NCBI GenBank assembly: GCA_048593225.1
Contig: CM109176.1
Span: 477,499,429-477,563,428, forward strand
Direction of reading: 5' to 3'
DNA: 64,000 nucleotides
Source: Sarcophilus harrisii
Lineage: Eukaryota
Part shown: one piece after another, positions 7,051 through 63,394 of the stretch
Layout: each line of letters begins with the position of its first letter
Numbering within the stretch: the stretch's first letter is position 1
Notes under the pieces: model-generated
What the model saw: only the letters and a program-made list of their open reading frames with translations
What the model was told of the DNA's origin: nothing
Databases searched by the model: none
Translations under genes and position numbers: made by a program

Positions 7051-7059
7051 GGCTGCTCC

Positions 7060-11340: not shown

Positions 11341-11449
11341 GATAGCATTCATATAAAAAGGATTTGTTGTTCACTTGTTTCAGCTTTGTTAGATTTTTTG
11401 TGACCCTTTTTGAAATTTTCTTGGCAAAGATACTGGAGTGGTTTGCTAT

Positions 11450-36581: not shown

Positions 36582-36695
36582 CTTAATACCACCTTCCAGC
36601 AAAAGATTGGAAGATACAAGAAAAGAAAATTCAGGATGCTCCTGGAAGCACTGCAATTCCACCACCACCACTTCTTTCTCTCCCTCTGATTTAAT
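36582..36695 (-). CDS. PARP4: PARP4 coding exon
   Basis: Translation IKSEGEKEVVVVELQCFQEHPEFSFLVSSNLLLEGGIK aligns with human VGMEGGQEAVVVELQCSRDSRDCPFLISSHFLLDDGME. Acceptor ccttttccag. Donor AAG|gtattt. 114 nt, phase 0/0. Confidence 0.85.
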
Positions 36696-37453: not shown

Positions 37454-37529
37454 TTTTTCTAGGATGCTGTACTTTGCAACTTCAAAATCTTGAGGAATAT
37501 ATGTGATGTCGTCATCTTCTGTACAAAAT
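37454..37529 (-). CDS. PARP4: PARP4 coding exon
   Basis: Translation FCTEDDDITYIPQDFEVAKYSILEK aligns with human IPHLPQDFEVAKYNTLEK. Acceptor tatatttcag. Donor AAA|gtgaga. Phase 2 in, 0 out. Confidence 0.85.
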
Positions 37530-39149: not shown

Positions 39150-39285
39150 AGCAGCTAGGTGGCGCAATGGATAGAGCATTAGCCCTAAAGTCAGGAGGAC
39201 TTTCAAATATGTTCAAATATAACCTCAGACACTTAATACTTCCTGGCTATTTGACCCTGGGGAAACACTTAACCCCAATTGTTTT

Positions 39286-39321
<36 letters not shown>

Positions 39322-39330
39322 GAAATGAGA
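39150..39330 (+). mobile_element. Marsupial tRNA-derived SINE with poly-A tail, lying in the PARP4 intron between exons 3 and 4
   Basis: ggagcagctaggtggcgcaatggatagagcattagccctaaagtcaggagg...aaccccaattgttttagcaaaaaaaa. Confidence 0.9.
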
Positions 39331-39336
39331 GTTTAC

Positions 39337-39400
39337 TTATTCTGCTCCATAATCTCTTCATTCTTCTCTGCAGTACTATGCAAGTCATCCTTGTCCACTC
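39337..39400 (-). CDS. PARP4: PARP4 coding exon (divergent BRCT-to-linker region)
   Basis: Translation (R)VDKDDLHSTAEKNEEIMEQN(K) gives only a weak match to human ...DSATEEEDTVELTEFGMQNVE. Reading-frame phase fits both neighbouring exons (1 nt in, 2 nt out). Acceptor tcttctcttccag. Donor AA|gtaaac. Confidence 0.65.
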
Positions 39401-39647
39401 CTGGAAGAGAAGATATGTATTTATTATTCAACATAATTTAATTGTGAATAGCTTGATAAGAATATCTATAGACAAATAAATAAGGGCCCATAAAATTTGG
39501 ATCATCAAGACATAGGAGGCCTATAAGAATATATTTTATAATTCTATTTAAACAGTATACAGGCATAAATGTACCTACATTTTCTCTGTAGTACCTGAAG
39601 CATATTTTCTGATTTCTATGAAAATGGGTATTCATAACGACACTTAC

Positions 39648-39849
39648 TGGAACTGCTTGATCTTTCAAAAGGAAGTAGAGTGAGTCCTGATGATTCATTG
39701 CATTTGTAATTCTCAATACTTAAGAGTTCTCCTTGTTTGAGGCAGTCCCATAAAAAATCTATGTTTGCGATGGAGATGTGATACTCCTGGACAGCACTTA
39801 GCTCATCAGAACTCAGAGTAGCATCATTGTCTAAAATTATATGTGTACA
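39648..39849 (-). CDS. PARP4: PARP4 coding exon (BRCT domain)
   Basis: Translation CTHIILDNDATLSSDELSAVQEYHISIANIDFLWDCLKQGELLSIENYKCNESSGLTLLPFERSSSS aligns with human CTHIILDNADVLSQYQLNSIQKNHVHIANPDFIWKSIREKRLLDVKNYDPY. Acceptor is a T27 run followed by ag. Donor CCA|gtaagt. Phase 0 in, 1 nt carried out. Confidence 0.85.
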
Positions 39850-44505: not shown

Positions 44506-44638
44506 CTTGTGGTTTAATGTAGAGGAGACAATTCCATTGTTTTTTTTAATATTGTTTCTTAGTAATTTCTTCTGCATGTATTGTAAACTGTCATCTTTCA
44601 AATAGAATCTGTAATTTGTAAATATTCCCATGGTTATC
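44506..44638 (-). CDS. PARP4: PARP4 first coding exon (BRCT N-terminus). CDS starts at the minus-strand ATG at 44631; the exon begins at 44638 after its own 3' splice site.
   Basis: Minus-strand translation MGIFTNYRFYLKDDSLQYMQKKLLRNNIKKNNGIVSSTLNHK aligns with my memory of the human PARP4 N-terminus (MVMGIFANCIFCLKVKYLPQQQKKKLQTDIKENGGKFSFSLNPQ). Kozak context aaccATGg. Acceptor ttttttttaaacag lies immediately upstream. Donor AAG|gtatca. Ends in phase 0. Confidence 0.8.
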
Positions 44639-47164
44639 CTGTTTAAAAAAAATGTAGAAAATGAAATGAAGAGAATTGGAAGAACATCATATACCATAGT
44701 AGCAATATTGTAACAATGACCAAGTGTGAAAGACATACTTATTCTGATTAATTCAATGATCCAAGATAATTCCAAATAATTTATAATGAAAAATGCTGTC
44801 CATCTCCAGAGATAAATTCTGAGTACATATATTCAAGCATATTTTTTACTTTATTTGTCTTTCCTTTGTCTATTTGTTTCTTTGTTTCTTTCTATGTATG
44901 TAAGGTGGCAAATCTAGAAATGTTTTGTACGCTTTCACATATATATGCATACCTTATTGCTTGCCCTCTCACTCAGTTCAGGTGGAGGGGCTGGAAGGAA
45001 GGAAAGAATATGGATTTTGAAATTTTAAAATTAATGTTAAAAAATCAATAAATGAATAAATATAAATAATATAGAAATATTTTATATACTAATATACATG
45101 ATTATTTTAATTAAAAAAATAAAGGCAAGTGCTAGTCTAATTCAACATTTATGTTTTTGTACAGTGAATTGTGTTTTGTTTTAGAAACTGAAAATGAACT
45201 TGCTCAGAGTTTATAAATTTACTTTGTTCATTTTTTATCTTCTGTATGAGAATTATTATACTAAATTTGGGTGAAGCCTATGTGCAAAACATATCCACAC
45301 TGAATCTCACATCCATTTTACCTTCACAAAAATTGCTATTTTACAATTATAAACTAACGTGTTGATTGTGGTATGATAGGACAATAAAGGTCATTCAGTC
45401 TAACCTTCTCATTTTATAAGTAAGAAAGCCAAGGCTCAGAGAGGGGAAGGGATTTGTCCAAAGTTCTGGTAGGGAACAGGTCCTTGGCCTTCACCAGCTT
45501 TACTCATCATCCTGTACTTTCTATTTACCTTTGGGATGTGGGTCAAATATACTATTGAATTAAAAATAACACATGAGTCTCTAATAAGATTATAATGAGG
45601 ACATGTAACAAATTTCAGCTAAAGGTCAGTGACATTATTCAAGATTATATATCTTTATTATTAAACAGTTAAAAAAAATCTAAATTGTAGAGGTTTTATA
45701 AGGAAGAAAGCGAGGTCTTTCCTTTCATTATACTCTATAAATTCAAATAACTTTTTATCTCCTTTTACTTAAGAAAACTTTAAAAAAAGTGATTAACTTA
45801 GAGAAATGTTTTTTAGCAATGAATGAGCCACAAAAATTCAAACATTAAAGGTGTTATTTGATGAGAAATGATCGAGATGCTTATGAAAATTTAAATTTAC
45901 TTTAATGTATCTCAGAGTCTTTTATATATGAATTGTTTCTCAGAAAACTAAATAATTTTAATGAAAATAGAGGGCACTTATCTAATTCAAGTTTAAATCT
46001 TTCTGTTAGTGGCTTACTTTGGCAGTTTTCAAAATGTGTTCCATAGGATCAAAATAATGCTAAGATCTTTTTAATTTCTAAATAATATCAATAAAGTGAC
46101 TTTCAAAAAAATTTAAAAATAAAAAAATAAAGTGACCTTCATAAGTAAGAATTTTTTAGGATTCTTATTCTTTTTTTAAAGAGTGAAAGGAGTTCTGAGA
46201 CCAAAAATTTGAGAATTGCTGTTTTTTTATCATCTCCTTTCCTCTTATAGTTATAATTTGGTTTCTCAAAAATCACTTAACAAAGATGGTTGATCTCAAC
46301 TGTCTTACAGCCTTATACATATTACTAATTACTCTTTTATATTTACATATATTTTAAAATACTGGTTAGTAGATGCTATAAAAATATTTATGATTAGACC
46401 TAAAAAATAAATACCAGGGTGAAGTTATTGACTTATAGGCAATAAATATTGACCCCCACAGTTACTTTTTGGCATTCTAGTCCTATGCCCACAGGACTAT
46501 TTTCATTTGTAAAATCATAGCTTTTTTTTTAAAAAAAACTTTCAATCTAAAAGCATTTATCAGTTATTCTGAGCCAGTTGCTATACGAAATGCTAGGATT
46601 ACAAAAAAAGGTCAACACAATTCAAACTTTCAAAGAGCTCACATTCTATGAAGGAGACAACAAAATATTTAGGAAGATAGAAGATATACAAAGAAAATGG
46701 GAGGTAAACTCAAAAGTAGGCTTTGGTGGGGAGGATATGTGGTGAGACAAGAAAAGACCTCCTACAGTGGGATTTGAGTTGATACTTGCTGGCAGTTAAG
46801 AGGTGAAATTGAGAAGAGATAGTGCATTTCATGCATGGGGAACAGTCAGTGAAAAGCATAGCAAAACATGGATTTTATTGCGTGAGGATGAACAAGTAAG
46901 CAAAAGCTGATGGCTCCCAAAGTGAGTGAAGGGAGAAAAGAGTAAGAAGATTGGAAAGGTGGAAATGTGAAAGGTTATGAAGGACTTCAGTGACAAAAAG
47001 AAGATTTTATGTTTGATTCTAGAAGTAATAAAGAGTTACTAGAATTTACTGAGCAGGAGGTTACATAGTGAGATCTGTGTTCTAGGAATGTCATTTTGGT
47101 AGCAAAGTGAAAGATAGATTAGCATATGGAGAGAAAATATTAGAGAAAAAAATTTAAATGCTAT

Positions 47165-47310
47165 TGCAGGAATAAGCTAAGTAGTGCAGTAGATAAAACG
47201 CCAGACCTGGAATCAGTAGGATCTGAGTTCATGTCTGGTCTCAGACACTTGCTAGCTATGTGACCTTGGGCAATTTAACCCTGGCTACCTCTAATTTAAA
47301 AAAAAATGCT
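47165..47310 (+). mobile_element. Marsupial SINE, plus orientation
   Basis: aagctaagtagtgcagtagataaaacgccagacctggaatcagtaggatctgagttcatgtctggtctcagacacttgctagctatgtgaccttgggcaa…aaaaaaa. Confidence 0.8.
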
Positions 47311-47559
47311 ACTGCAAAGATTTCAGATTTGGGGGCAATAATTTACCATTTGCGGAAAATTGCTGGGAAAACTGGAAAGCTATTTTGCAGAAGATGGACA
47401 TAGACCAACATCTCAAGACCAAGAGAAAGTCAAAAATGACACATGTTTTAGACATCAAGGATGACACAATAAGAAAATTAGGGGAGCATGGAAAATTTTA
47501 CATGTCAGATCTATGGATAAGAGCTCTTATGACCCAATAAGAGACACAGAGGATCACAG

Positions 47560-48130
47560 GATTACTTTCTGTGAATGTATAAAATGGATAATTTTGATTG
47601 CATTAAATTAAAAAGTTTTTTCACAAACAAAACCAATGCAACAAAGATAGAAGGAAAGCAGGAAACTAGGGAGAAATTTCCCCAAGTTTCTCTGATAAAG
47701 ATGTCATTTTTCATATATAGGGGAAAAGAGTCATTAAAAATAAGAGTCATTCCCTAACTGGTAAAAAATCAAATGAAATGAACAGGCCTTTTTCAAAAGA
47801 AGAAATCAGTGGTATATCAAATCAAAGTCATAAAAAAAGGTCTAAATCACTAGATTAGATTAGAGAAATATAATTTAAAACAACTCCAAGGTAATACCTT
47901 ATATCTATCAGATTAGCTAACATAATGAAAAAGGAAAATGACAAAAGTAAAAGGGGACGTGAAAGAACTGGAAAAATAATGCACAGTTGGTGGAATTATA
48001 AAGTGGTCAGGTCATTTTGGAGAACAATTTGGAACTATTACCAAAGGGCTATAAAAATGAGCATATATCCTTTGAATCAGCAATATTACTATTAACTCTA
48101 CGTCCCAAAAAGATCAAAGCAAAAGGAAAA
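47560..48130 (+). mobile_element. L1 ORF2 fragments, plus orientation
   Basis: ORF 47575..47757 (MDNFDCIKLKSFFTNKTNATKIEGKQ...) and ...ggtcattttggagaacaatttggaactattaccaaagggc. Confidence 0.75.
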
Positions 48131-48959
48131 TAATAATATTTTAATAGTAATAAATAATAAAATATATAATGATAAAATAATAATAACATTTATGATTGAA
48201 TCTAAATAGACATGTTGAATTGAGATGCTCCTGAGACATCAAGTTTAAGAAGTCTAAAAGTCAGTTAGTAATATAGTGCTGTTGATGAGGAGAGTAAGTA
48301 TGAGAAGATGTAAGAATCATCTACATAGAGAGAACATAAAGATGAAATCATCAAGAGAAATATATAAACAGGGAAAAGAGAAGAAAGTCTATCTACTAAA
48401 GTATTTTGGGGAGTGTTAGGGGAAAAGGGGAGGAAGAACACTACCCATAGTCAGAGGATTGAGAAATAAAAGTTTGAAAGAGGGGTCAGATCAGGAGAAA
48501 GTTCTATCATAATAATCTAGAGAGGAAAGAATATCTAAGAGAAAAAGATGAAGTTAAGAAGGAAGAAGATTGAAAAAATAACAAGGGATTTAACAATATG
48601 ATAATTGATAACTTTGAAAAGAGCAGTTTCAGTTGAATGATGAGGTCAAAAACCAGATAGCAGAGTGTTTAGAAGAATGAAAAGTTAGGAAGTAGAGTCA
48701 CCTAAAATATATAGATTTCACAAAGAGTTTCACCAAGAAAGAAAGGAAAATTATACAAGCCTAGCTTGTAGGAATAGTATAATCAAGTGAAGGATTTTAA
48801 AGCATTTACAAATAGTAATCAGCAATTTAGCCATGTTTGGTACTCCCAGAAACCCGCTATGTGTAATCTAATCTGACCATTAATAAAACTGTCACTCAAA
48901 TTATTGGAGTCAAGTCTTATTAGTCAGTTTCTAAAGTAGTCTATCTTTTTTTTTTAACT

Positions 48960-49300
48960 TTCTTTTTTTAATTATAGCTTTTTATTTACAAGTTATATGC
49001 ATGGGTAATTTTTCAGCATTGACAATTGCAAAATCTTTTGTTCCAATTTTTCCCCTCCTTCCCCCCACTCCCTCCCCCAGATGGCAGGTTGACCAATACA
49101 TGTTAAATATGTTAAAGTATAAGTTAAATACAATATATGTATACATGTCCATACAGTTATTTGATGTACAAAAAGAATCAGACTTTGAAATAATGTACAA
49201 TTAACCTGTAAAGGAAACAAAAAATGGAGGTGGACAAAACTAGAGGGATTGGGAATTCTATGTCATGGTTCATCATCATCTCCCAAATAGTCTATCTTCG
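48960..49300 (-). mobile_element. L1 3' end, minus orientation
   Basis: ttatagctttttatttacaagttatatgcatgggtaatttttcagcattgacaattgcaaaatc... is the complement of the L1 tail. Confidence 0.75.
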
Positions 49301-52300
49301 AGGTAGAATTATTCAGGACATCAGAACGAGACTTACTTGCCTCTCTTTAGAATCTGTAGTGTTAGTGGTAGGTTATCATGGAAGCAGTAAATTAATCTAT
49401 GTATTCTTTAACTTTGATTTCTGGCAAATTCTAGAATGAATTACTAAAGACATAGTTTACGAACATCTAAGAAGTAGTGCTAAGATGGCTGCCTAAATGG
49501 GAGGTAGATATACTAGCGCCCCTAAACCTATTCCACCAAAATACTGAATAATAATCAAGAAAGCTATAAGAAACTATAATAAATAATTTTTTCCATCCTA
49601 GAACTGGACAAAAAGTCTGGCAGAAGCCCAAGAGCAAGAGAAAAAATTCCATCAATAAAGCCAGTATTAGTAAAACGTGTCACTCCCAGAGTGACTAGAG
49701 ACAAAAGAGATGACACTTAAAAGGCTCTGTGTCTTGAGGCAGCAAGAGCCGAATACTTCCCTTAGAAAGGCCATGAATGGTCAGGAAGACCCTGGGTGGG
49801 GGTCTTGAAGTCTTGAGGTGCTGTAGTGGGTAACTACTAGTGATCAGAATGGTGTTGCAGCACTCAGAATGCTCAGATCCAGAGCCTAGAGTGCACCAAA
49901 TGTCTAAGATACTAGAAAGAGACTTGGAGAATCCAACACAGTTAACCTTAAATATCCAAGGAGGCCTAACCCTAGGAGCAATAAGTAGGTACTTAGAGTG
50001 GGATCACATCCTATAATATATAATAAACTCACTCAAAAGAATAAAAGATGAGTAACCTGAACTTGGCACAAAGGTCTAATTCAAGATCTAAAGCTGGAGA
50101 GATGAACAAATCACAGAATATACTGACAAGTAGCCAGAATTACTGCAAATCTAGAGATCCCTAACCAGGAGGCACTGACTTTGTAATAACTACAAGAGAC
50201 TTAAAGGAAAAAATGGATTTTTACAAAGACTATATGAATATTTATCTAGGAGAAATGAAGTAAGAAGCTTTAAAAAATAAAATAAAAGTTCTGGACCAAA
50301 GAATTAGAAGCAGAAGAATTAGCTGGGAAGAGAAAGTGACAAACTTTACACAGAAAGTAGACTTCCTGAAAACTAGTATAGACCAAACAGAAATCAATGA
50401 GTCCATGAATCAGCAAGAAATATTAAAACAAAATTTTTAAAATTAAAAAAAATAAAAGAAAAATCTGATATTAAAAACAACTGACTTGAAAAAGGTCAAG
50501 GAGAGATAATTTGAAGATCATTGGACTCTGACAAGACCATTTTGTTTTGTTTTTTAAAAATAAAGAAAAGTGTTCTGATGAGGGCAAAGGGCAACATAAA
50601 GACAGAAAGAATCCACTGATCATCTTCTGAAATGAACTTCAAAAGAAAAAATTCTAGAAATGTCATAGATAAAATCCAGAGCTCCCACATCAGTGGAAAA
50701 AATAGTGTAAGAAACTAAAAAGAAGCAATTTATCTGGATCATGTCTGGTAACTATGGGTGTCCTTCAGGGTTTTGTTCTGGTTCCTCTTTTCTTTTTCCT
50801 GTATACTCTTTCACTTGGTGATCTCACCAACTTTCTTGGATTCATTAATCACCTCTGTACAGGTAACTCTCAGATTTACTTATCCAGCCATAACCTCTCT
50901 CTTGAACACTAATCTCATATCTCTAATTGTCAGTTAGACATCTCATACTAGACATCCTAAAAATATATTAAATTTAATGTTGTGGCAGGCGCAACATTAA
51001 ATGAGTGAGGAAATTAAATTTTTGAGCTTCTTAACATTTTGATTAATCAATGCATACCAATTGTTTAACAAACTGGGACCAACCTTCTTCTTCAGTTTAG
51101 GACTGTACCCAAATATAGAAGAAGACATATTTTTATATGCTAAAAATAATTAATCAAATAAGGGCAATTAATTAAAAGGAAAGAATTAAGCTGGATACAA
51201 CATTAGATAGTCTAATTTCTAACTGGATGAAAATTATAGACTTTTCAAGTTGGGAGAAGAGAAGAAGAATGAACAGGTGCAATTTCTTGACATTAGAAAA
51301 AGAAATGTCCCCCTCCCTTTAAGAATCTGTGAATAAACAAAAGAATATAGAAACAATAATTGATTGGGATCAATTTTCAGGTTAAGATATAAGGGCTGCT
51401 TAAGATGTGAGATGTGAGAAAACTTCTTATGTCACTCTTTAGATTTGACCAGATTTCTAGGCAGCATAATTTAGGTTCTTAGTTAAGGGTGTCTTATGCA
51501 AAAGATAGAAGTGGTTCAGCTTCTCAGTCACACAAGGCTAAGTTCAAACAATGAAATAAGATTTTTTCCCAATTTCCACAACTGAATGAAATATTCTCAT
51601 ACTCATAATTGGACTAGACCCATAACTGAATAGAAAGGGAACTGAGCTACCTCCAAAACTGAGGCCCAAGGTGGAATCAGTGTGGTTTACACAATTCCCA
51701 CCACTACTTTGTTCCAATTTACTCAATTCTCTCACAATGGACATCCTGCAGACATATTAAAATTAATATGCTCCAAATGGAATTCAATATTTTTCCTCTA
51801 AAACTGTCTCCTCTTCCTAGCTTTCCTATTAGTATGGAGAATACCACTCCATACTTTTCACTCATCCAGGGTTGAAAAGCAGGTGTCCTACTCAACTCCT
51901 CACTCTCACTTCCCATATCCAATTTATTGCCAAATCTTGTCAATTTTACTTTTATAAAATTTCTCAAACATGCCTCCTTCTTTTCTCTGACACTGTCATC
52001 ACTCTGGTGTAGGTCTTTAATCTCCTCATGGCTGTTGTTATTCAGTTGTATCTGACTTTTTGCAGATCCCTGGACCATATCACACCAATACTGTCTATCA
52101 GGGTTTTTCTGGGAAAGGATACAGGTGTGGTTCTTCATTCCTTTTTCCATATGCAAACATAAGTTGAATATATTGCCCATGATCATAGAGCAAGCCTAAA
52201 TCTGAACTCAGGTCTTCCTGACTTCAGGCCTAGCATTCTATCCATTGAATCATCTAGCTATCTTATACCTAGACTATTGCAATATGTTGCTGTTTAGCAT

Positions 52301-52336
52301 CTATATTAAAAGATTCTCACCATTAGGAAGGAATTT

Positions 52337-53583
52337 GTGACCAAAGAAGAACTAGAGATCATTATTGATCACAAAATAGAAAATTTTTATTATATCAAGT
52401 TAAAAAGCTTTTGTACAAACAAAACTAATGCAAACAAGATTAGAAGGAAAGCAATAAACTGGGAAAACATTTTTGCAATTAAAGGCTCTGATAAAGGCCT
52501 CATTTCCAAAATATATAGAGAATTGACTCTAATTTATAAGAAATCAAGCCATTCTCCAATTGATAAATGGTCAAAGGATATGAACAGACAATTTTCAGAT
52601 GAAGAAATTAAACCTATTTCTACTCATATGAAAAGGTGCTCCAAGTCATTATTAATCAGAGAAATGCAAATTAAGACAACTCTGAAATATCACTATACAC
52701 CTGTCAGATTGGCTAAGAGGGCAGGAAAAGAGAGTGATGAATGTTGGAGGAGATGCAGGAAAACTGGGTCACTGATGCCTTGTTGGTAGAGACAACTCTA
52801 CCAATTGATCCAGCCATTCTGGAGAACAATTCGGAACTATGCTCAAAAAATTATCAAACTGTGCATACCCTTTGATGCAGCAGTGTTATTACTGGGCTTA
52901 TATCCCAAAGAGATACTAAAGAAGGGAAAGGTACCTGTATATGCAAAAATGTTTGTGGCAGCCCTGTTTGTAGTGGCTAGAAACTGGAAACTGAATGGAT
53001 GCCCATCAATTGGAGCATGGCTGAATAAATTGTGGTATATGAATGTTATGGAATATTATTGTTCTATAAGAAATGACCAGCAGGATGAATACAGAGAGGC
53101 TTGGAGAGACTTACATGAACTGATGGTAAGTGAAATGAGCAGAAACAGGAGATCATTATACATTTCAACAACAATAGTGTATGAGGATGTATTCTGATGG
53201 AAGTGGATATCTTCGACAAAGAGAAGATCCAATTCAATTCCAATTGATCAATGATGGACAGAATCAGCTACACCCAGAGAAGGAACACTGGGAAATGAAT
53301 GTGGACTATTTGCATTTTTATTTTTCTTCCCAGGTTATTTTTACCTTCTGAATTCAATTTTTCTTGTGCAACAAGAGAACTGTACGGATCTACACACATA
53401 TATTATACTTAAGATATACTTTAACATGTTCAACATGTATGAGACTGTCTGCCATCTAGGGGAGAAGGTGGAAGGAGGGAAGGGAAAAGTTGGAACAGAA
53501 GTGAGTCCAAGGGACAATGCTGTAAAAATTACCCATGCATATGTTCTGTCAATAAAAAGCTATAATTAAAAAAAAAAAAAAAG
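52337..53583 (+). mobile_element. L1 3' portion (ORF2 C-terminus plus 3'UTR plus poly-A), plus orientation
   Basis: ORFs 52337..52789 and 52805..53197 encode L1 ORF2 C-terminal sequence (KLKSFCTNKTNA...WENIFA...SDKGLISKIYREL...REMQIKTTLKYHYTPVRLA...IQPFWRTIRNYAQK...). The 3' end ...ctgtcaataaaaagctataattaaaaaaaaaaaaaa is the typical opossum L1 tail. Confidence 0.85.
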
Positions 53584-55989
53584 ATTCTCTCCACTTTAGA
53601 CCATTTTCCACTCAGATGCCAAAATGATTTTCCTAAAGTACAAATCTGATCATCTGATAAGATGATCACCTTCTTCTACTTAATAAACTCCAGTGCTTCC
53701 CTATCACTTTCGAAATCAAATATAATATCCTCTGGCACTCAAAAGCCTTTCATAATCTGCCTTCTCCAACTTTCTAGTCTTCTTATACTTCCCTCAGTTC
53801 CTTCAATACACAATTAAAATGCTATCTTCAATAAGAAGCTTTCCACAATTTCCCTTAATACAACCATCTTCTTCTATTAATTATCTTTACTTTGCATGTA
53901 TCTTGTTTGTACATAGTTAATTTCATATTGTCTTGCTGATAGTCTTTGAGCTCTTTGAGATCAAGAACTGTGTACTTTGCATAATACCAGTGTTTAGCAG
54001 AAAGTAGGTACTTAACAAATGTTTTTTGACAGATTGTGAGCTTTTGAATTACAATCAGGATCACACAAGATCTGAAAACTACTAAAAATCTAAGAAGATG
54101 TTGTAATACTGGTACAATGTTCCAAAAGTTAAAAAAAAAGTTTTACACTCAACTTACCTTACAAAGCTGAGCATAATCCTACAAGAGGAAAAAGGGATCT
54201 TTAATGGAATAAAGAACTTTCTAGCACTTATGATGAAGGGACCAGACCTGAATAGAAATTGAACTTCAAATACAAGAGCCCAGTTAAAGTTAGAAAGGTA
54301 AATTGATTGGAGCAGATGGAAACAGTAGGATAATATTGATGATGATGATGATGATGATATAATAATACCTTTTAATATATGAAGAAAAATCAGTGTTCCT
54401 TAATACAAAGAGCATCAAGGAGATAAATAAGAAAAGAGAGGTCTTGGAAGTAGATTAATTATGAGTACAGGAAAAGGCGGATGGCAAAAGGAATATACAG
54501 TAGTGTAAAAAGGAAGAAAAGAGGGTAAAAGTGTTATTTTTTCATCACTGTGGTTTGTCAAAAATCAGTGTATTGGAAAGGGTGAGGCATATGGCTATCT
54601 AGTGAATCATACTCTAAATTGAAAGTGAACAGAAGACGGTTTAACACATACACAAATTTAAATTAAAAGGTAGAAAGACCTACAAATTAAGAGACCTACA
54701 AAAAATAAGTGCAATATGAGAGAGTGGTGAAGAGGGAAGAGTAATACTAGAAATGGAAGAATCAAGAGAAAAACATTTGTAATCTCCTATCAGTCATAAG
54801 GATAAGGTCAAATTTCATTTCCTACTTCTTATTCAACATGACACTCCCTTGGTTCCCCTCCCATAATCAAAACTTTCCCTGATATTTAACAGTCAGAGTA
54901 GTGAAGAAACTAATGGCTATCTCAACCTCCATTTTAGTTTCACAACTGCTTCTAAAAGAGGCAACTAATAATGAAAAAACCAAACAAAACTCAAACCCAT
55001 ACTACTTTAAAGCTGGAGGAACTGTATGGAATAGAGAGAAAAGGTGAAGAACTTACAGGAGTGTATGGATTCTTTTTCTGTATTTTATTTTCATTATTTC
55101 TGTATTTCCCCTATGACCTGTATAATATGTACAGGCCCATATTTACTTGAGTCTTGGCCAGTTATAAACATATTTACTTAACCTGAGCTGATGATATGTA
55201 TCAGTATTTGACATTTATTGATATTTAGTCTATTAGCTGGACCCACTACCTGCTTGATTAAGGCTGAAGGCCTGATTTTCTGTTTCCTAGAAATCAGGAG
55301 ATTTTGGGGAAACGGAAACCTTCCATCTGAATCTCTCCGAATAGCAGCAATTAGATGCCTCCCCCTCCCCTTCTCAATGCTCTCTTACTTGTGATGTAAT
55401 CTCTTGTATAAAAGCTATGTATCTTTACTATTTCTTTAGCCCTCCTACCAGGAGCTTTCTCTTTCTTATCTCATGATAGGATGGCTCATCCACTGGAGGT
55501 TTTTAATAAACAACTTTTCTGCCTTCTACTGAGTGATCTCGAAGTAATCATTTTGGATAATGGTCTTCTACATCCCTCACAGGAACCTTCTAATCCAATT
55601 CCTCTCCTGTTTATATGGGCATATATAGATTTCTATAGAAAGAGATATACATATATACATACACATATATAAGATTATACTGGACAGACAGTTTACATTA
55701 TATTCCCACAATGGGTACTCAACAAACAGTAAAATTAAATATCTTACTTCAGGTCTCCTCAAACTTCAAAACCGAAATGTCTTACAGAGCAACAAAATGG
55801 CATGTGAAATGTGCAATTTGATTATTTTCATATTACTCTATTGACTCCAAACTTTTCCTTTCCTTTTTCCTCACTTCCTCTTAACACTTGAAAATAAAAT
55901 AAACAAGTATATCACTAAGCAGATTACAGTAATTTAAGAAATCTTCTTAAAGAGAAAGTATTTATTTTTTTTATTATTTTTTTCTTTCT

Positions 55990-56330
55990 TTCTTTCTTTT
56001 TTTTAATTTAATAGCCTTTTATTTACAGGATATATGCATGGGTAACTTTACAGCATTAACAATTGCCAAACCTCTTGTTCCAATTTTTCACCTCTTACCC
56101 CCCACCCCCTCCCCTAGATGGCAGGATGACCAGTAGATGTTAAGTACATTAAAATATAAATTAGATACACAATAAGTATACATGACCAAACTGTTATTTT
56201 GCTGTACAAAAAGAATCAGACTCTGAAATATTGTACAATTAGCTTGTGAAGGAAATCAAAAATGCAGGTGGGCATAAATAAAGGGATTGGGAATTCAATG
56301 TAATGGTTTTTAGTCATCTCCCAGAGTTCT
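55990..56330 (-). mobile_element. L1 3' end, minus orientation
   Basis: The same reverse-complemented L1 tail consensus as at 48960. Confidence 0.75.
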
Positions 56331-58779
56331 TTCAAAGAGAAAGTATTTAAGAGCCTAGTGACCTCAAACATAGGATGTTTTAAAAAGATAATAATAACCT
56401 ATCACCTGAACTTAAAGAGGAATCAATCAGAGGAGAAGGTGATAGTTTAAAGCCAACTGTCACAGCCTAAATAGAAGCAAACGCAGCCTGGGAAAGGAGA
56501 GCAGAACAGCACCAGCTGCAAGGAGTGAGACCAGGCTGGACGTTTAACTAGGAAAAAATAGATGGAATGAAGATAAAAGATAGGCTCATACACACCTGGC
56601 AGAGGGGTTTCTGCCCCTAGATCCGAGAGTTTTCTGGTTCCAAGTTCAAGATTGATCTACAGAACAAGAAAAAGACAAAAAACTCTAGTCAAAACCGAAA
56701 GTAAACACTCCTTTTCACTTCCCAGAAAACTGCCTGTCAGCTTGCTTTTAGAAAACGGAAAGGGACAGGGCTTGGGAGCAGACTCCACCCCTCCATCTCC
56801 CTAAGCTGAGAAGAGATGGCAGAGGTGGGGCAACAGATGACCCCAGTAAATTAACTCCTCCAGATGGAACCTGAAAAACATAGGCCCAAGAGTTTTGATT
56901 CTTCAGACAGATGTCCTTCTTTGTTGAGGTTGAAATGTTTATATATCAGTGATCACTGATTTAGAGCTGGAAGGGGTCAGGGTCTGTCAAATCCAACCTC
57001 CTCATTTTAAAGAAGAGGAAACCGAGCTCCGGGTAGTCACTTGCCGATGGTTGCACAGGTAGAAAGTGTCAGAAGTGGGATACAAATTCAGTCTCTGGGA
57101 GGGAGTTCTAGGTAAGGAGGTCAGTCAGTGAAAATCCTCAGAGTTAGGAGATGGAGAGTCTTGTTTAAAGACCAGTGTAAGCAAGGAGGTCATAGTCACT
57201 GGTTGCACAGTCCCTAAGAGGATACATAAGGAGAGGAGTGAGTAAACTGGAAAGGCAGAATGGGTCCTGGTTATGGAGGGCTTAAGAAGCCAGAAACTCT
57301 AAATAGAGAGTCATTGGCTTAATAATGCGTTGACATTGGTCAGACTCCTGATTTAGGAAGATCACTTTGGGAACTGAATGGAGAGTGGACTGAAGTGGGG
57401 AGAAATTCAAGGCAGGCACACCAGCCTCCTGCAATGGTCTGAGTATTGGGTGATAAAGGCTTGTACCAGAGTGGTTCTTTCAGAGGAAAGAAAACAGCAT
57501 GCTTGCCATCTAGGGGAGAGGGTGGAGGGTGGGAGGGAAAAATCGGAACAGAAGTGAGTGCAAGGGATAATGTAAAAAAAATTACCCTGGCATGGGGTTC
57601 TGTCAATAAAAAGTTACTATAATAAAAAAAAAAAGAAAGAAAACAGCATTATAAATACAGGACTAGGAAAATGATTGGATAAGAGAGTGAGGAGTTGAAG
57701 AGAACCCTTGAGTTGTAGGTGACTGGATGGTAACGGGAAGAGAGGTACCTCCATAGCAATAGGGAAGTTAGGAAGAGGAGAAGTTTTAGGGTTTAAGAAT
57801 AAGTTCCGTTTTGGCTAAGTTGAGGCTGTGCTGTCTACAGGACATCCGGTTCGAAATGTCCAGTGGGCAGTTGGAAATGTGAGAGCCGAGGTCAGGAGAG
57901 AAGTCCTGGGCTGGGCAAAACTGGAAATCATCTGCGTGGAAACTGATAGTTGAAATTTTGGGAGCTGCTGAGATAACCTAAGAACCGGGTGGCCAGGGCT
58001 AACTTTACCTACTTGTCAAACAGATAATTGGGATGATTTTTTTTTTTTTGGGGGGGGGAGAAAAAAGGGGGATGAATTTTTATACACACAGCTACCCCCG
58101 TGGGAAGTCTTAAAAGCGTGCTCAGCCCTAAAGGAACAAAGCCCAAACAAACCAAACAAAAAGGGATCCTTCACAAATCAGCAACAAAAAGCCACACAGA
58201 CATCCGTAAGCAAAAAAATTTACCAATAAAACAACAAAACCCTGGAAAGGAGAGTTTTGCTCCTCCCCATTTAGAATGTGAGCTCCTTTGAGGGTAAGGA
58301 GTATATTTTGTAAATGTATCTCCCGAACTTAACCCATTGCCTGGCACATTAAAAGCGCTTGTTTTCAGAAGAGGAAAACACAGCCTTCAAACCTCTAATA
58401 ACATGGACAGGTCTCTTCATGATGCTTCGGGCGTCAGTTTGCTAATCTCTAAAATGGGGACGGTACCCTCGGGTTTACCTCGGAGTCTCGTTAAGGGGCT
58501 TTAATGAGTAAATGACATACATAGACCGTGCTTTGGAGACTTTAAAATAGCGTAGAAATATCAGTTAATTATCCTACGGATAGTCAGCTCCTGGAAGGTC
58601 GATAACTTTAATCTAGATAAGCAAAAACATCCAGCCCCATAGCTTCAGGTTCAGTTGCTTCCCAGTCCTTTGGATTACGTTTGGCTCTTATGCATCTGCT
58701 TAAAGCAAATTTCTACTACGAAACTTTCTGAAAAACAACTGTTTCTGAAAACTCCGGCAAAGAGAAGGGACCCTTATTG

Positions 58780-58920
58780 AAGTCAACCTCTCCGTTCCTC
58801 TCCCCACCCCCATCTCTTTTCCCCACCCCCATCTCTTTTCCCCACCCCCATCTCCTCTCCCCACCCCCATCTCCTCTCCCCACCCCCATCTCCTCTCCCC
58901 ACCCCCACCTCCCCAAACGG
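58780..58920. repeat. Minisatellite with a ~19-20 bp unit (CTCTCCCCACCCCCATCTC), about 6-7 copies
   Basis: Direct tandem copies of ccccacccccatctcttttc / ccccacccccatctcctctc are visible. Confidence 0.85.
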
Positions 58921-58964
58921 TAGCAGCGGAAGAAGCTCCTCAACTCAGGCAAGGACCAGTAACG

Positions 58965-59096
<132 letters not shown>

Positions 59097-59110
59097 GGGT
59101 GTCTCCTGGG

Positions 59111-59130
59111 GATTGTAGTTCAATAGTCGG
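59111..59130 (-). promoter_or_regulatory. ZNF143 (SBS-like) motif, minus orientation
   Basis: Minus strand reads ACTACAATCCCCAGGAGACA. It is oriented outward, opposite to the plus-strand motif about 45 bp away. This divergent pair is typical of bidirectional promoters. Confidence 0.5.
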
Positions 59131-59171
59131 CCAGAGGAGCCCTGTGCTGAGGACACCAAAGGCACAGTTGG

Positions 59172-59190
59172 ACTACATTTCCCAGATTCC
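59172..59190 (+). promoter_or_regulatory. ZNF143 (SBS / ACTACAATTCCCAGCA-like) motif, plus orientation
   Basis: ACTACATTTCCCAGATTCC closely resembles the ZNF143/THAP11 composite motif common at CpG-island promoters. Confidence 0.5.
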
Positions 59191-59461
59191 TCGGAGTCCC
59201 GGTAGGTGGGGCTCCCGGAGGAGTTGGAGGTAGGGCTCCGGCGGAGGCCGTGGCTCGTTTGTAAATGGAGAGGGAGGCGCTAGAAGTGGCGGTGGCTGTG
59301 GCGCGATTTGGAAAAGGGATTGAACAGCTAGAGCGCCGGACGCCGGTAACTTGGGGCTGCAGGTGGGGGATCCGGGGGAGCCGGAGGCAGAAACAGTTCT
59401 GTCCTCGGGAACCTGAACCCGGCGACGTTTTGCTGCCGCGGAGCCCCGCTCTGCGGGAGGG

Positions 59462-59580
59462 TTAGGGGCTGGGGGGGTGGGGGTGGGAGTGGGGGTGGGG
59501 GTGGGGGTGGGAGTGGGGGTGGGGGTGGGGGTGGGGGTGGGGGTGGGGGTGGGAGTGGGGGTGGGGGTGGTGGAGAAGAT
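59462..59580. repeat. (GGGGGT/GGGAGT)n G-rich hexamer array, about 19 units, with G-quadruplex potential
   Basis: gggggtgggggtgggagtgggggtggg... The 'HPHPHP' minus-strand ORF is an artefact of this array. Confidence 0.9.
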
Positions 59581-60316
59581 CTCTCGCTCCGTGGCTGTCG
59601 GCTTCGGGGCCTAAGGATGTTGGGGGCACTCTTCCCGCCGACCCCCCTCCCCCCATTTGTTTCAACTATCTTTGAATACTTTTAGCTCTTATTTGAGGGT
59701 TTGGCTAATGGGAGTTTAGAAAGAGTTTCTGCTTTTAAGTCTCCTCAGGGACCTTGTTCCCTTAAAAGTGACTCTGGGTCATTTTCTGTCCTTTGATGCC
59801 GATGGTCGTGGAACTGTTGTGATCGGTTTCAAGGCGTTTAAATCGTTAAGAAAGAAAAGAAAAAAAATAATTACTATTTTTCTAAACCAGCAACTTAATT
59901 TCTCTTAGATTTGGAAGATGTGATGTTGACAGCAGTTTGCCAGACTGGCGAGGGGATACTACAATCACTGACTTTTTTTTTTAAAGGTTGCTTTCTCCCC
60001 CAGGGCTATGTATATATAAATAGTCAGCCGTGTCTGTATCTATACTGAGAACGTCATGATGTATTTGTGACATGCATGTATTTAAAAGTTCATTTTAACT
60101 GGGGCATCTGTGAGCTATGTGATAGTTTATTATTCCTGGTGCCAGATACAGACCTTAATTTTAGTTGGTTGGGGCTTTCGTGCCGTCCTTTTTTTTGGGA
60201 TGGTGATGGTAATAATGCTCCTTTGTCTTTTGTAAACTTATTTCCAGTCCCTGAATCCTGAATCTTCACAATGCCAAATTGGTCATTTTTTCAGGTAAAA
60301 TAGAAAGTTGCTCCAT

Positions 60317-60362
60317 TCCCCCCCCCCCCCGCCCCCCTCACCCCCCCCCTCACCCCCCCCTT
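60317..60362. repeat. Poly-C / (C8-13 N) homopolymer tract
   Basis: cccccccccccccgcccccctcacccccccctcacccccccc. Confidence 0.9.
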
Positions 60363-62870
60363 CAGGAGATAACTAAGACAAGTGAATGCAACTATTTTAA
60401 CATGATTGCATGAAGTAATTAACTTTTTAGGATTCAGATCGTGGAACAGTGAAATGGACAGAAACACAGTTTTAGAACAAAACAATGATAACATTAAATC
60501 TTAGCAAATAATTTGTTTAGCATTCTCCGTGTGGTAGGCACTGGAGGTACAGAGACAAATAAAAATCCCTGTCCTTAGGGAACTTACGTTTTGTTATTAG
60601 GGGAGACAATATTAGGATATCAAAAAACAAATACATAATTTTCCCAGGGAGGAATGAGGAAGGATCAGGAAAGGCTTCACTTTGGAGGAGGTGACAAAGA
60701 TGGAAAATAGCATCCTGCTCTGGAACTTGTGTTAATTTAGAATTCAGTGTCCCAAAATAATTTTGTAATTTGTTTCTCATTCTCACTTTTTGCTTTTAAA
60801 ACTTGTTTTCATGTGACCGTCTCAATGCCATTTTAAGATTTACTTTTACTGGAAAATCATTTCTTTTTTAAATTAATGACATATTAAAGATGAATTATAC
60901 ATATTAAAGGTCAGTTTTTGAGTGTGTATGAATGGTAAAAGGATGCAGATTTTAATACAGTAAATGTTGGTACATAGTAGAACAGTACTTCCCTACATGC
61001 TTTTAAAGCAATTGTATTTGTTTTAAATGGCATGACATATATGTATTTTAAATTCATCTAAAGGGCATCTCTCAAGGAATGTTAAACATAAGTAATAATA
61101 ATTTATTATTCTTGGTACTAAATGTGTGCTTTAATATCAGTTGCTTATTTGGGAATGATTCCCACTTCAGTAAAAAGTTGTTTCTTATCTTTAAAACAAC
61201 AATTATATTTTTGATTTAAATATTGTTTTTTTCAGCACTTCACATGTCCATTGTTTCCAGTTCTTTTCTCAAAGTATTTATGATGTATAGATATGAGGCT
61301 TGTAGTCTACAAGTGTTTGATCTATTTCTTGCTCTTGAACTGTATTTTTTCAACATTTTCTTTGCTTCTCCAGTACTTACCTTTGTATCAGTTACCTGAG
61401 ATATATTGAATTAACTTGGAAGTTCTGAATGAATTCTTCATAAAATGGCTCTAGTATTTTATTCTCTAATGAAGAAGTTGGTATATAAGCTAGTTATTTT
61501 TATGACAGGTTTTTTTTTTTTTAAATGAAATGACCTAAAGCCCCAAGAAATGAAATTTCTTTCAGCGTTTAGGTACACAAAAAAACTAATCCTGCAGAAG
61601 CCTTTGTCTCTTCAACCCTGTGAGCTACCTTTTGTTTAGCTACAACTAAAGTTTCTAAAGGAGAATGTCAAATTGATACAGTTCAGTTTCTCTTGTAAAA
61701 TATTCAATCTTTGGTCATCAAACATAAATGATCAGTTTTAATATTTGGAAGTTAGCTAAGTTAATTTTCACAAATAGGCTAAGCATTGTTTGATTTGTAG
61801 CATCAACTGCTTCTGTTTTCAGTATTCTTCTATTGTTACAGCAAAATCAGGAGGGAGCCATATAGAATTTAAGGTCATTTTGTATTTTTCTTTGTTTTGT
61901 GGACTGCCGTGGCAAAAAAATTTTTCATCAAGTCTTAAGTAGACATTAAACATCAATTCTAAGCAGACATTGCTAGAACCATGCTTGAAGCCTTTTCATT
62001 GTGGTAGAACTTGCAAGGTTTTTCACTCTGCTGAAAGTCTCCAGGAGCCTAGGGTTGTTATAATGAAGCTTCGGAATAAGACTTTGTGGAAATATGTATG
62101 AAAATATATATGTGTGTGTATATACATATGTACACACACATACATAGACATATAACTAAATATCTTCAAGTAAATCTATATATATAATGAATATGTATAT
62201 ATAAATACACACATATTATGCCCTATGTCTGTGTACTATACCCAGATCATTTTTGTATAATAATATACACACATATATATAATCTGTAATATATATGTAC
62301 ATGCATACATACTATTGTTTTGTAATATATACTTTAGTCTTTCATAATGGTTTGCAGATACCAAAAGAATATCTGTATGTGTGTATACATACTCAGTATA
62401 TATAGATATAAATACAGATATAGATATGTATGTATATACATATGCATACATACTGTTGGTTTATAGTGTTGTCTTTCATAATGGATTGCAGTTTCAGGAG
62501 TATATTTAATTTATTGGAGCTTCTTATAGACTCAATTATGCAAACATTATTAAGTGAATGTTATCTATAAGGCACTGAAGATAGATGGATGGAAAAACAT
62601 CCCTAGTTCAAGGAATTCATAGTTAGAAGCAGGGAAAAATAACTTGTACCCAGGAAACTGTTCTACAAATAAGAAAGGGAAATATTAATAGGAGTGCTTA
62701 AGCAAAAGAGAAGCTATTTCAGAAAGCTATTGACAGTTGAGAGTTCAGAGGAAGACTTTGTGAAAGGGGATAGCATCAAAAACTTGTTTTGAAGATTAGG
62801 ATTTAAACAAGCATATGATGGCGCTGGATGTATTCTATTGTAACCTTTAATTGATGTTTTTCTCTCTGCA

Positions 62871-63394
62871 GGTATTGAATATCAACAGACAGATGTAACA
62901 GCTGTATGCTACACAAGCTTTGGCACTATTTTAACTTATTAGTGCTTCAGACTACAATTATCCTGATGCCCACTTCTTCAGAATTAAATAGCGGGCAGAA
63001 TTTTGTAGCTCAGTGGATGTCTAACCCTTCCCGTGCTGGTGTGATATTGAATCGTGGATTTTCTAGTTTGGAAATGGGGAGAGAGAATCAGTTAAAAGCA
63101 AATACTTCCAACAGTTTTACTCTTAAAAGCACAGATTTTTCAGACAGCTGTAGTTTTCTAAGTGATGACTCACTTCATGAAGAAGAGATCTTGGATTCTA
63201 AAAGCCCTGATAGAGTGCAGTCAGCTACAAATGAAACAAATGCAGTCTTTTCTTACCCTAAAAAGACACAACAATTACTGATCTGCAAAGATGCTCTGGG
63301 TCACTGGGAAAATACCAAAATTGATGCTGAATCTGATGTAGGTATCACCAAAGAAGGAGTTTATAGAGATCCACTTTTCAAGAAACTTGAACAG
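62871..63394 (+). CDS. CENPJ: CENPJ/CPAP first coding exon. It includes a 5'UTR segment. The ATG most likely lies at 62966; an in-frame upstream ATG at 62906 is also possible.
   Basis: Translation ...[39 protein letters not shown]...VYRDPLFKKLEQ matches the human CENPJ N-terminus ([35 protein letters not shown]...AYKDPLFKKLEQ). Acceptor ttttctctctgcag|GT at 62870/62871. Donor CAG|gtaaaa at 63395. Confidence 0.8.

What the first reader, a model, noticed from the sequence alone, without database searches (positions are those of the whole stretch)
44506..63394. PARP4 and CENPJ lie head to head about 18 kb apart, which differs from the eutherian gene order
The PARP4 ATG exon (minus strand, ends at 44638) and the CENPJ first coding exon (plus strand, 62871) point away from each other with a single CpG island between them. 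As I recall the human and mouse arrangement, it is PARP4 ... ATP12A – RNF17 – CENPJ. There CENPJ is convergent with RNF17, and its 5' end is not adjacent to PARP4. The layout seen here fits an inversion of the ATP12A–RNF17–CENPJ block relative to eutherians. It may instead be the ancestral state that was rearranged later; in human the 5' flanks of both genes carry TPTE2 pseudogene duplications.
Basis: inference. Interest (0 to 1): 0.6.

Follow-up and report, generated by a model that had tools for sequence, protein, structure and literature searches.

The report
Ancestral PARP4–CENPJ head-to-head gene pair
PARP4 and CENPJ do sit back to back around one small CpG island here, but this is the old amniote layout that rodents, ruminants, birds and lizards also keep, and it is the primate order that changed, as already published.

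Summary
A multi-exon PARP4 lies on the minus strand, with its ATG exon at 44506-44638. The first coding exon of CENPJ lies on the plus strand at 62872-63394, with its ATG at 62966. The two ATGs are 18.3 kb apart and point away from each other. The only CpG island between them is at about 59100-59650.

The interpretation, that this differs from the eutherian order, is wrong as a generalisation. The same head-to-head pair with a CpG island between is present in grey squirrel, emu and a skink. Published goat and chicken gene lists give RNF17, CENPJ, PARP4, MPHOSPH8 as neighbours, in opposite listing directions. Human does differ: CNV intervals hold PARP4, a TPTE2 pseudogene and ATP12A without RNF17 or CENPJ. 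Zhao & Schranz (PNAS 2019) already reported that CENPJ, RNF17 and ATP12A were relocated together in primates.

One small extra result emerged. The island core holds two back-to-back ACTACAnnYCCCA motifs of the ZNF143/THAP11 type. Their 5' ends are 51-53 bp apart in the window, squirrel and emu; skink has one exact copy and one degenerate copy. This suggests an ancient shared bidirectional promoter that the primate rearrangement must have split. The finding is ordinary and already known.

The parts
1303..39849 (-). PARP4 coding exons 3 onward, covering about aa 45-718 of the human numbering. They encode the rest of BRCT, the WGR-like/regulatory region, the PARP catalytic domain and the start of VIT.
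   Evidence: tblastn HSPs at 39849-39649, 37528-37451, 36662-36567, 34323-34138, 33531-33394, 32146-31973, 30495-30337, 27844-27623, 25275-25150, 23814-23605, 22161-22021, 13284-13156, 1797-1651 and 1410-1303 (the query was human PARP4 recalled from memory). The joined window-derived protein matches PDB PARP4 at E=1.4e-259. Pfam finds BRCT, PARP_reg, PARP and VIT. The best database hits are named PARP4.
44506..44638 (-). PARP4 ATG exon, with the ATG at 44631. It has a splice acceptor in front of it, so it is probably exon 2.
   Evidence: Sequence read: ttttttttaaacag|GATAACCATGG ... CACAAG|gtatca. The orthologous exon is found in Nannospalax, squirrel, emu, skink and camel.
44639..59105 (-). 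Putative PARP4 intron 1, about 14.5 kb. It contains LINE-1 remnants and no other gene.
   Evidence: No ORF with a non-repeat character. No Rfam family. No DNA conservation with squirrel, emu or skink apart from an L1 fragment. The equivalent interval is 23.6 kb in squirrel and 3.15 kb in emu. Calling it an intron is inference; there are no transcript data.
58796..59094 (.). Low-complexity arrays on the PARP4 side of the promoter core: a C-rich 19-mer repeated 6 times (58796-58912) and (TC)65 (58965-59094).
   Evidence: Tandem Repeats Finder. GC skew here is -0.46 to -1.0.
59101..59650 (.). The only CpG island between the two genes, and the inferred shared bidirectional promoter.
   Evidence: 200-bp windows with GC 0.60-0.74, CpG o/e 0.6-0.9 and 10-16 CpGs. 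The GC skew changes sign at 59100-59200.
59106..59119 (-). ACTACAATCCCCAG, an SBS2/TBS-type motif (ZNF143/THAP11) that points towards PARP4.
   Evidence: This is one of only two matches to ACTACANNYCCCAG in 64 kb, with 0 expected from 100 shuffles. It is conserved in squirrel, emu and skink.
59172..59185 (+). ACTACATTTCCCAG, an SBS2/TBS-type motif that points towards CENPJ.
   Evidence: Its 5' end lies 53 bp from the 5' end of the other motif. The same spacing is 51 bp in squirrel and 52 bp in emu. Alignment A1 shows both motif blocks invariant or nearly so.
59473..59570 (+). (GGGGGT)16 array on the CENPJ side of the island.
   Evidence: Tandem Repeats Finder. GC skew here is +0.4 to +0.78.
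59651..62871 (+). Putative CENPJ intron 1, about 3.2 kb.
   Evidence: The coding exon is preceded by ttctctctgcag, a splice acceptor. The equivalent distance from the CENPJ ATG to the motif pair is 4.9 kb in squirrel, 1.9 kb in emu and 1.1 kb in skink. This is inference; there are no transcript data.
62872..63394 (+). CENPJ first coding exon, with the ATG at 62966 and 143 codons, ending in ...DPLFKKLEQ|gt.
   Evidence: Hits are named centromere protein J. The orthologous exon is found by tblastn next to PARP4 in squirrel (E=2.4e-44), skink (E=8.7e-22) and emu (E=2.9e-13). DNA identity to the squirrel exon is 70% over 496 bp.

Best explanation
The window comes from a non-eutherian mammal, most likely a marsupial. 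It shows the ancestral amniote arrangement of PARP4 and CENPJ as divergent neighbours. Both genes most likely start at one small CpG island at about 59.1-59.65 kb, which would act as a shared bidirectional promoter. Each gene would have a short non-coding first exon there, spliced over a first intron to its ATG exon: about 14.5 kb for PARP4 and about 3.2 kb for CENPJ. The core of the island carries two outward-facing ACTACAnnYCCCA motifs about 52 bp apart. This is the motif class bound by THAP11 and ZNF143 that is over-represented in, and sufficient for, bidirectional promoters. The human order, PARP4 ... ATP12A-RNF17-CENPJ, is a derived primate rearrangement that separated the pair. It is not a general eutherian feature.

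Shown here: gene identities, orientation, the single island, the motif pair and its conservation, and the same arrangement in squirrel, emu and skink. Taken from papers: goat, sheep, chicken and duck gene lists, the human CNV contents and the primate-specific relocation. Inferred: positions of the transcription starts, the non-coding first exons, factor binding, and the mechanism of the primate rearrangement.
For: Identity. PARP4 matches at E=1.4e-259 and has BRCT, PARP and VIT domains. The CENPJ exon matches named CENPJ proteins.

Same arrangement elsewhere, from DNA fetched here with PARP4 oriented on the plus strand.
- Squirrel L004: CENPJ ATG exon on the minus strand at 5381-4947, CpG island at 9501-10500, PARP4 ATG exon at 33992.
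- Emu L002: CENPJ exon on the minus strand at 4856-4470, island at 6001-7500, PARP4 ATG at 10001.
- Skink L005: an annotated minus-strand gene of 1238 aa with Tubulin-bind_CPAP and Tcp10_C domains ends at 6573, 3.4 kb from the PARP4 gene model.

From papers. Goat coordinates and order. Chicken list MPHOSPH8, PARP4, CENPJ, RNF17. Sheep and duck loci hold the same genes together. The camel locus has a Chromo+Ank (MPHOSPH8-like) gene model just downstream of PARP4 on the same strand, which matches goat and chicken.

Human differs, and the primate-specific relocation is published.

Promoter. There is a single CpG island. The two inverted ACTACA motifs are unique in 64 kb, with 0 expected by chance. 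The pair recurs at the same spacing in squirrel and emu, and in degenerate form in skink. The GC skew flips sign at the motif pair. ACTACANNTCCC is documented as a THAP11/ZNF143 SBS2 site, over-represented in bidirectional promoters and sufficient for bidirectional activity (PMC3082894; PMC3627581).

Taxon. PARP4 identity is 58-60% between the window and eutherians, 74-79% among eutherian orders, and 47-49% between the window and sauropsids or frog. The window has 34% GC and CpG o/e 0.13.
Against: No transcript, CAGE or ChIP data are available, so the transcription starts and the non-coding first exons are not located. PARP4 could use another promoter within the 14.5 kb. In Nannospalax, a CpG island 5.5 kb upstream of the PARP4 ATG exon lacks the motif pair, and no CENPJ exon lies within 10 kb. 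The camel locus (9.1 kb upstream, with gaps) was also uninformative about CENPJ. Outside the two motifs, the promoter shows no DNA similarity detectable by blastn between species. No primate or mouse locus could be fetched. The human order therefore rests on CNV gene contents and one synteny paper, and the mouse order rests only on my memory. The two teleost loci show no CENPJ upstream of PARP4, so the pairing is documented only for amniotes.
Confidence: 0.85

Rival explanations
1. One reading: the ATP12A-RNF17-CENPJ block was inverted in the marsupial lineage, and the eutherian order (PARP4 ... ATP12A-RNF17-CENPJ) is the reference state.
For: The human order does differ from the window in the way described.
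Against: Squirrel (eutherian), emu and skink DNA show the same head-to-head pair. Goat, sheep and chicken gene lists agree. The relocation of the block is reported as primate-specific.
Confidence: 0.02
2. The genes are neighbours but do not share a promoter. The CpG island serves CENPJ only, and PARP4 starts at a CpG-poor promoter nearer its ATG exon.
For: The island is 14.5 kb from the PARP4 ATG exon and only 3.3-3.8 kb from the CENPJ ATG. There are no transcript data. Nannospalax has a separate CpG island 5.5 kb upstream of the PARP4 ATG exon without the motif pair.
Against: The PARP4 ATG exon is preceded by a polypyrimidine tract and AG, so an upstream exon is expected. There is no other CpG island in the interval. 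One of the two conserved motifs points towards PARP4 in every species where the pair is present. The squirrel PARP4 gene model begins inside the island. The GC skew is symmetrical about the core.
Confidence: 0.12
3. The exon at 62.9 kb is a CENPJ pseudogene or paralogue fragment, so the adjacency means nothing.
For: Only one CENPJ exon lies inside the window, and no Pfam or PDB match exists for it.
Against: The 143-codon frame is intact with canonical AG and GT boundaries, and homology ends exactly at the donor. The orthologous exon sits in the same place next to PARP4 in three other amniotes. In skink it belongs to a full 1238-aa gene model with CPAP tubulin-binding and Tcp10_C domains.
Confidence: 0.02

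Closest known systems
Primate-specific synteny cluster of CENPJ, with RNF17 and ATP12A co-transposed (Zhao & Schranz, PNAS 2019, PMC6369804)
   Different: That paper does not mention PARP4 (0 occurrences), the head-to-head promoter or non-mammalian outgroups. Here the non-primate state is shown to be a divergent PARP4-CENPJ pair that dates back at least to the amniote ancestor.
ZNF143/THAP11 (SBS2, ACTACAnnTCCCA) bidirectional promoters, such as the BUB1B fragment and TMEM186-PMM2 (PMC3082894, PMC3627581)
   Same: A CpG-island promoter sits between divergent genes. It holds two ACTACA-extended sites. The motif class is known to be over-represented in bidirectional promoters and sufficient for bidirectional activity.
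   Different: No binding or reporter data exist for this locus. PARP4 and CENPJ do not occur in the main text of PMC3082894. By my reading, the 3' halves of the 18-bp SBS match the consensus at only about 10-12 of 18 positions. The strict back-to-back geometry with about 52 bp between 5' ends, conserved from mammal to bird, is specific to this locus.
TPTE2 segmental-duplication block at human 13q12.1 (PMC7419210)
   Same: It is a primate-specific, recurrently rearranged duplication block in the same chromosome band. TPTE2P6 lies next to ATP12A in human.
   Different: Nothing in the window relates to TPTE2. A causal role of these duplications in separating PARP4 from CENPJ is inference and was not tested here.

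Membership tests
PARP4 (vault poly(ADP-ribose) polymerase) gene | N-terminal BRCT domain followed by a PARP catalytic domain and a VIT domain | tested here: met
   Pfam: BRCT 6e-12, PARP 1e-31, VIT 1.7e-25, in that order.
PARP4 (vault poly(ADP-ribose) polymerase) gene | Closer to PARP4 than to any other PARP | tested here: met
   PDB PARP4 E=1.4e-259 over aa 1-674, against PARP1/2/3 at about 1e-15. All top database hits are named PARP4.
PARP4 (vault poly(ADP-ribose) polymerase) gene | C-terminal VWA domain and MVP-interaction domain | not testable with these tools
   These exons lie beyond the low-coordinate end of the window. The window ends at about aa 718.
CENPJ / CPAP gene | N-terminal coding exon homologous to CENPJ, with true exon boundaries | tested here: met
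   Named CENPJ hits at 46-60% identity. AG and GT boundaries are present and homology ends at the donor. DNA identity to the squirrel exon is 70%.
CENPJ / CPAP gene | Tubulin-binding CPAP domain and C-terminal TCP10/G-box domain | not testable with these tools
   These lie beyond position 64000. At the orthologous position in skink the gene model carries PF25779 and PF07202.
Head-to-head gene pair with a shared bidirectional CpG-island promoter | Two genes on opposite strands pointing away from each other with a CpG island between them | tested here: met
Head-to-head gene pair with a shared bidirectional CpG-island promoter | Transcription start sites less than 1 kb apart (the definition used in PMC3082894) | not testable with these tools
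   No transcript or CAGE data. The ATG exons are 18.3 kb apart. That both starts lie in the 550-bp island is inferred from the acceptor sites in front of both ATG exons.
Head-to-head gene pair with a shared bidirectional CpG-island promoter | The pairing is conserved across species | tested here: met
   Squirrel, emu and skink loci. Goat and chicken lists.
ZNF143/THAP11 SBS2-type promoter | ACTACAnnTCCCA (TBS / 5' part of SBS2) in the promoter | tested here: met
   Two sites, at 59106-59119 (-) and 59172-59185 (+), with 0 expected by chance. They are conserved in three other amniotes.
ZNF143/THAP11 SBS2-type promoter | Good match to the remaining 3' part of the 18-bp SBS | tested here: inconclusive
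   Read by eye against TTCCCAGAATGCATTGCG: about 12/18 for the plus-strand site and about 10/18 for the minus-strand site. No scoring matrix was available.
ZNF143/THAP11 SBS2-type promoter | Occupancy by ZNF143 or THAP11 and dependence of transcription on the sites | not testable with these tools
   This needs ChIP and reporter or mutation assays.
   They are adjacent and divergent in squirrel, emu and skink. They are adjacent in the goat and chicken lists. Sheep and duck loci hold both genes together.

The most novel reading that the evidence does not exclude
PARP4 and CENPJ shared one bidirectional promoter with a fixed back-to-back ZNF143/THAP11 motif pair for more than 300 million years. 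The primate rearrangement that moved CENPJ-RNF17-ATP12A therefore had to cut either between the two transcription starts or through a first intron. In that case at least one of the two genes runs on a rebuilt or halved promoter in primates. One of them, CENPJ, is a primary-microcephaly gene. If so, the regulatory change would be datable and testable.
Probability: 0.35. Interest if true: 0.45.

Novelty: already known. Interest (0 to 1): 0.2.

Why it matters
It matters little for the species in the window, which simply keeps the ancestral gene order. The useful corrections are two. First, the human PARP4/CENPJ neighbourhood should not be used as the eutherian reference. Second, the rearranged state is the primate one, which is already in the literature. 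The modest added value is the conserved two-motif core of the presumed shared promoter. It gives a precise landmark for asking where the primate breakpoint fell and which gene kept the old promoter.

Tried and rejected
- PARP4 proteins of lemur, sloth and dromedary (isoform X2 or partial models) are not on record as gene products, so no primate locus could be fetched.
- Nannospalax has no CENPJ exon within 10 kb upstream of the PARP4 ATG exon, and its upstream CpG island lacks the motif pair. I judged this uninformative because PARP4 intron 1 is 23.6 kb in squirrel.
- Camel offers only 9.1 kb upstream, with gaps. It has no CENPJ exon, but an MPHOSPH8-like gene lies downstream.
- In Xenopus only 3.9 kb upstream is visible, and PARP4 is tandemly duplicated. 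Uninformative.
- The two teleosts show no CENPJ upstream of PARP4. The N-terminal CENPJ exon may be too diverged to detect, so this is a weak negative.
- CENPJ-exon hits from the protein search lie on contigs of 4.5 kb or less, too short for synteny.
- The CENPJ exon has no PDB or Pfam match.
- Rfam finds nothing in the window.
- blastn between the window and the other loci finds only the coding exons and L1 pieces, so the non-coding first exons could not be located by conservation.
- No paper held in the library gives the mouse order. My recollection that mouse chr14 reads Atp12a-Rnf17-Cenpj-Parp4-Mphosph8 is unverified here.
- I considered a candidate CENPJ exon-1 donor (GTTTGTAA, shared by the window, emu and skink) but did not claim it.

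Full report
**What is in the window**

The minus-strand exon at 44506-44638 reads ttttttttaaacag|GATAACC ATG GGA ... CAC AAG|gtatca. It encodes MGIFTNYRFYLKDDSLQYMQKKLLRNNIKKNNGIVSSTLNHK. A tblastn search with human PARP4, recalled from memory and used only to find exons, located 14 further exon matches on the same strand, from 39849 down to 1303.

The 674 residues joined from those window exons match solved PARP4 chains at E=1.4e-259, aligning residues 1-674 to 3-711. PARP1, PARP2 and PARP3 reach only about 1e-15. Pfam finds BRCT, PARP_reg, PARP and VIT in the PARP4 order. Every strong hit in the large protein database is named PARP4.

On the plus strand the acceptor ttctctctgcAG ends at 62871. 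The exon therefore runs from 62872 to 63394, with the ATG at 62966 and the donor CAG|gtaaaa. It encodes 143 residues, [13 protein letters not shown]...DPLFKKLEQ. The best hits, at 46-60% identity, include proteins named centromere protein J. Homology ends exactly at the donor, so it is a real exon and not a processed copy.

The two ATGs are 18.3 kb apart and the genes point away from each other. The only CpG island between them is at about 59100-59650, with GC 0.60-0.74 and CpG o/e 0.6-0.9. The window as a whole has o/e 0.13.

**What else lies between the genes**

The interval holds LINE-1 ORF2 remnants at about 52.3-53.2 kb, simple repeats and no Rfam family. Against squirrel, emu and skink it shows no conservation outside the coding exons and L1. 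No third gene is apparent.

**Is this order unusual?**

It is not. I fetched genomic loci around PARP4 from other vertebrates and oriented PARP4 on the plus strand.

| Species (locus) | CENPJ first coding exon (minus strand) | CpG island | PARP4 ATG exon | ATG to ATG |
|---|---|---|---|---|
| Grey squirrel (L004), a eutherian rodent | 5381-4947, tblastn E=2.4e-44, 55% identity | 9501-10500 | 33992 | 28.6 kb |
| Emu (L002) | 4856-4470 | 6001-7500 | 10001 | 5.1 kb |
| Skink, Lerista (L005) | 6573-6175 | CpG-rich windows at 7501-8000 and 10001-10500 | 14623 | 8.05 kb |

In the skink, the annotated minus-strand gene that ends at 6573 encodes 1238 aa with the CPAP tubulin-binding and Tcp10_C domains, so it is CENPJ. 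The PARP4 gene model starts at 10001.

Papers give the same picture:
- Goat chr12 reads ATP12A (50.08-50.11 Mb), RNF17, CENPJ (50.23-50.27), PARP4 (50.29-50.35), MPHOSPH8 (50.36-50.41) (PMC7810337; PMC11874128).
- Sheep OAR10 holds the same genes in one 580-kb window.
- The chicken chr1 list reads ...MPHOSPH8, PARP4, CENPJ, RNF17... (PMC10976558).
- Duck associates RNF17, PARP4 and CENPJ at one locus.
- In camel, a Chromo+ankyrin (MPHOSPH8-like) gene model follows PARP4 on the same strand.

The head-to-head pair is therefore at least as old as the amniote ancestor and persists in eutherian rodents and ruminants.

**Human**

- A contiguous duplication at chr13:22,153,141-24,201,255 (hg18) contains SGCG, SACS, TNFRSF19, MIPEP, C1QTNF9B, SPATA13, C1QTNF9, PARP4, LOC374491 and ATP12A. 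It does not contain RNF17 or CENPJ (PMC3279563).
- A 162-kb duplication contains only TPTE2P6 and ATP12A (PMC10000288).
- A 0.5-Mb gain lists only ATP12A and PARP4 (PMC2966422).

CENPJ therefore cannot lie between PARP4 and ATP12A in human, whereas it does in goat.

Zhao & Schranz (PNAS 2019, PMC6369804) already reported that CENPJ forms a primate-specific synteny cluster. [quoted passage not shown] The TPTE2 duplication block at 13q12.1 is described as primate-specific and recurrently rearranged (PMC7419210).

The headline interpretation of a departure from the eutherian order is therefore wrong. I recall that mouse chr14 also reads Atp12a-Rnf17-Cenpj-Parp4-Mphosph8, but I could not document this with the tools.

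**Which animal is this?**

PARP4 identity is 58-60% between the window and lemur, sloth, mole rat or pig. It is 74-79% among those eutherians, and 47-49% between the window and emu, skink or frog. With 34% GC and very low CpG content, this fits a non-eutherian mammal, most likely a marsupial. No closer relative was in the databases, so the species is not identified.

**How it probably works**

Both ATG exons are preceded by good splice acceptors, so each gene should have an upstream non-coding exon. The one CpG island is the obvious place for both.

Its core holds two matches to ACTACANNYCCCAG, at 59106-59119 on the minus strand and 59172-59185 on the plus strand. These are the only two in 64 kb, with none expected in 100 shuffles. 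They face outward, one towards each gene, with 53 bp between their 5' ends.

The same outward-facing pair is found in the squirrel island (10303 minus and 10354 plus, 51 bp apart) and the emu island (6786 minus and 6838 plus, 52 bp apart). In skink one copy is exact and the other degenerate (AACCACAATGCCCAG). In the four-species alignment the two motif blocks are the conserved columns.

The motif ACTACANNTCCCA is the THAP11 site and the 5' part of the ZNF143 SBS2 site. It was first noticed as over-represented in human bidirectional promoters, and an SBS alone suffices for bidirectional reporter activity (PMC3082894; PMC3627581).

The GC skew changes sign exactly at the pair. It is -0.46 to -1.0 on the PARP4 side and +0.35 to +0.78 on the CENPJ side, though this is driven largely by the flanking repeats.

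I therefore infer a shared bidirectional promoter. The transcription starts, the first exons and factor binding are not shown. The rival that PARP4 uses another, CpG-poor promoter within the 14.5 kb keeps about 12% of my belief.

**Limits**

Nannospalax, camel, Xenopus and two teleost loci were uninformative or negative within the 10-kb flanks available. The Nannospalax island without the motif pair is unexplained. No primate or mouse sequence could be examined.

**Verdict**

The conserved two-motif promoter core is a small new detail. It makes one question testable: which gene kept the ancestral promoter when primates split the pair. I score interest at 0.2.

Noticed in passing
window 58796-59094 and 59473-59570: The promoter core is boxed in by low-complexity arrays. 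A C-rich 19-mer repeated 6 times and (TC)65 lie on the PARP4 side, and (GGGGGT)16 lies on the CENPJ side. Each gene's sense strand is therefore G-rich just downstream of the core, which could favour G-quadruplexes or R-loops.
   Followed up: partly
window 52337-53197 (+): Two adjacent ORFs (150 and 130 aa) look like the C-terminal part of LINE-1 ORF2. A 188-bp stretch matches squirrel PARP4 intron 1 at 68%, which I take to be repeat similarity rather than orthology.
   Followed up: partly
L004 (Sciurus carolinensis) 10001-36523; protein P0049: The deposited squirrel PARP4 model has a spurious N-terminus of about 345 aa that begins in the CpG island. It skips the true ATG exon at 33992.
   Followed up: partly
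L003 (Xenopus tropicalis) 3919-102159 and 109697 onward: Two PARP4 genes lie in tandem on the same strand in the frog.
   Followed up: no
L001 (Nannospalax galili) 4100-4550: A strong CpG island lies 5.5 kb upstream of the PARP4 ATG exon. It has no ACTACA motif pair, and no CENPJ exon lies within 10 kb. It may be an additional promoter, or the shared one may lie further upstream.
   Followed up: partly
L008 (Camelus ferus) 40578-46830: One deposited gene model fuses the PARP4 MVP-interaction domain with Chromo and ankyrin domains. This looks like a PARP4 3' end merged with MPHOSPH8, and it shows that the two genes lie tail to head in camel.
   Followed up: no
L006 (Megalops atlanticus) and L007 (Nematolebias whitei), 1-10000: No CENPJ exon and no ACTACA motif lie upstream of PARP4 in either teleost. 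In L007 a UPF0220-domain gene sits there instead. The head-to-head pairing may not extend to ray-finned fishes.
   Followed up: partly
window 59250-59300; L002 6700-6760; L005 7600-7660: On the CENPJ side of the core, the window, emu and skink share short words (GTTTGTAA, GGCGCTAG, GTGGCG/GCCGCCATC). These could be a YY1-like site or the donor of the non-coding CENPJ exon 1. They are not resolved.
   Followed up: no
window 60318-60364: A 47-bp C-rich run (consensus unit CCCCCCCCTCAC) lies in the putative CENPJ intron 1.
   Followed up: no
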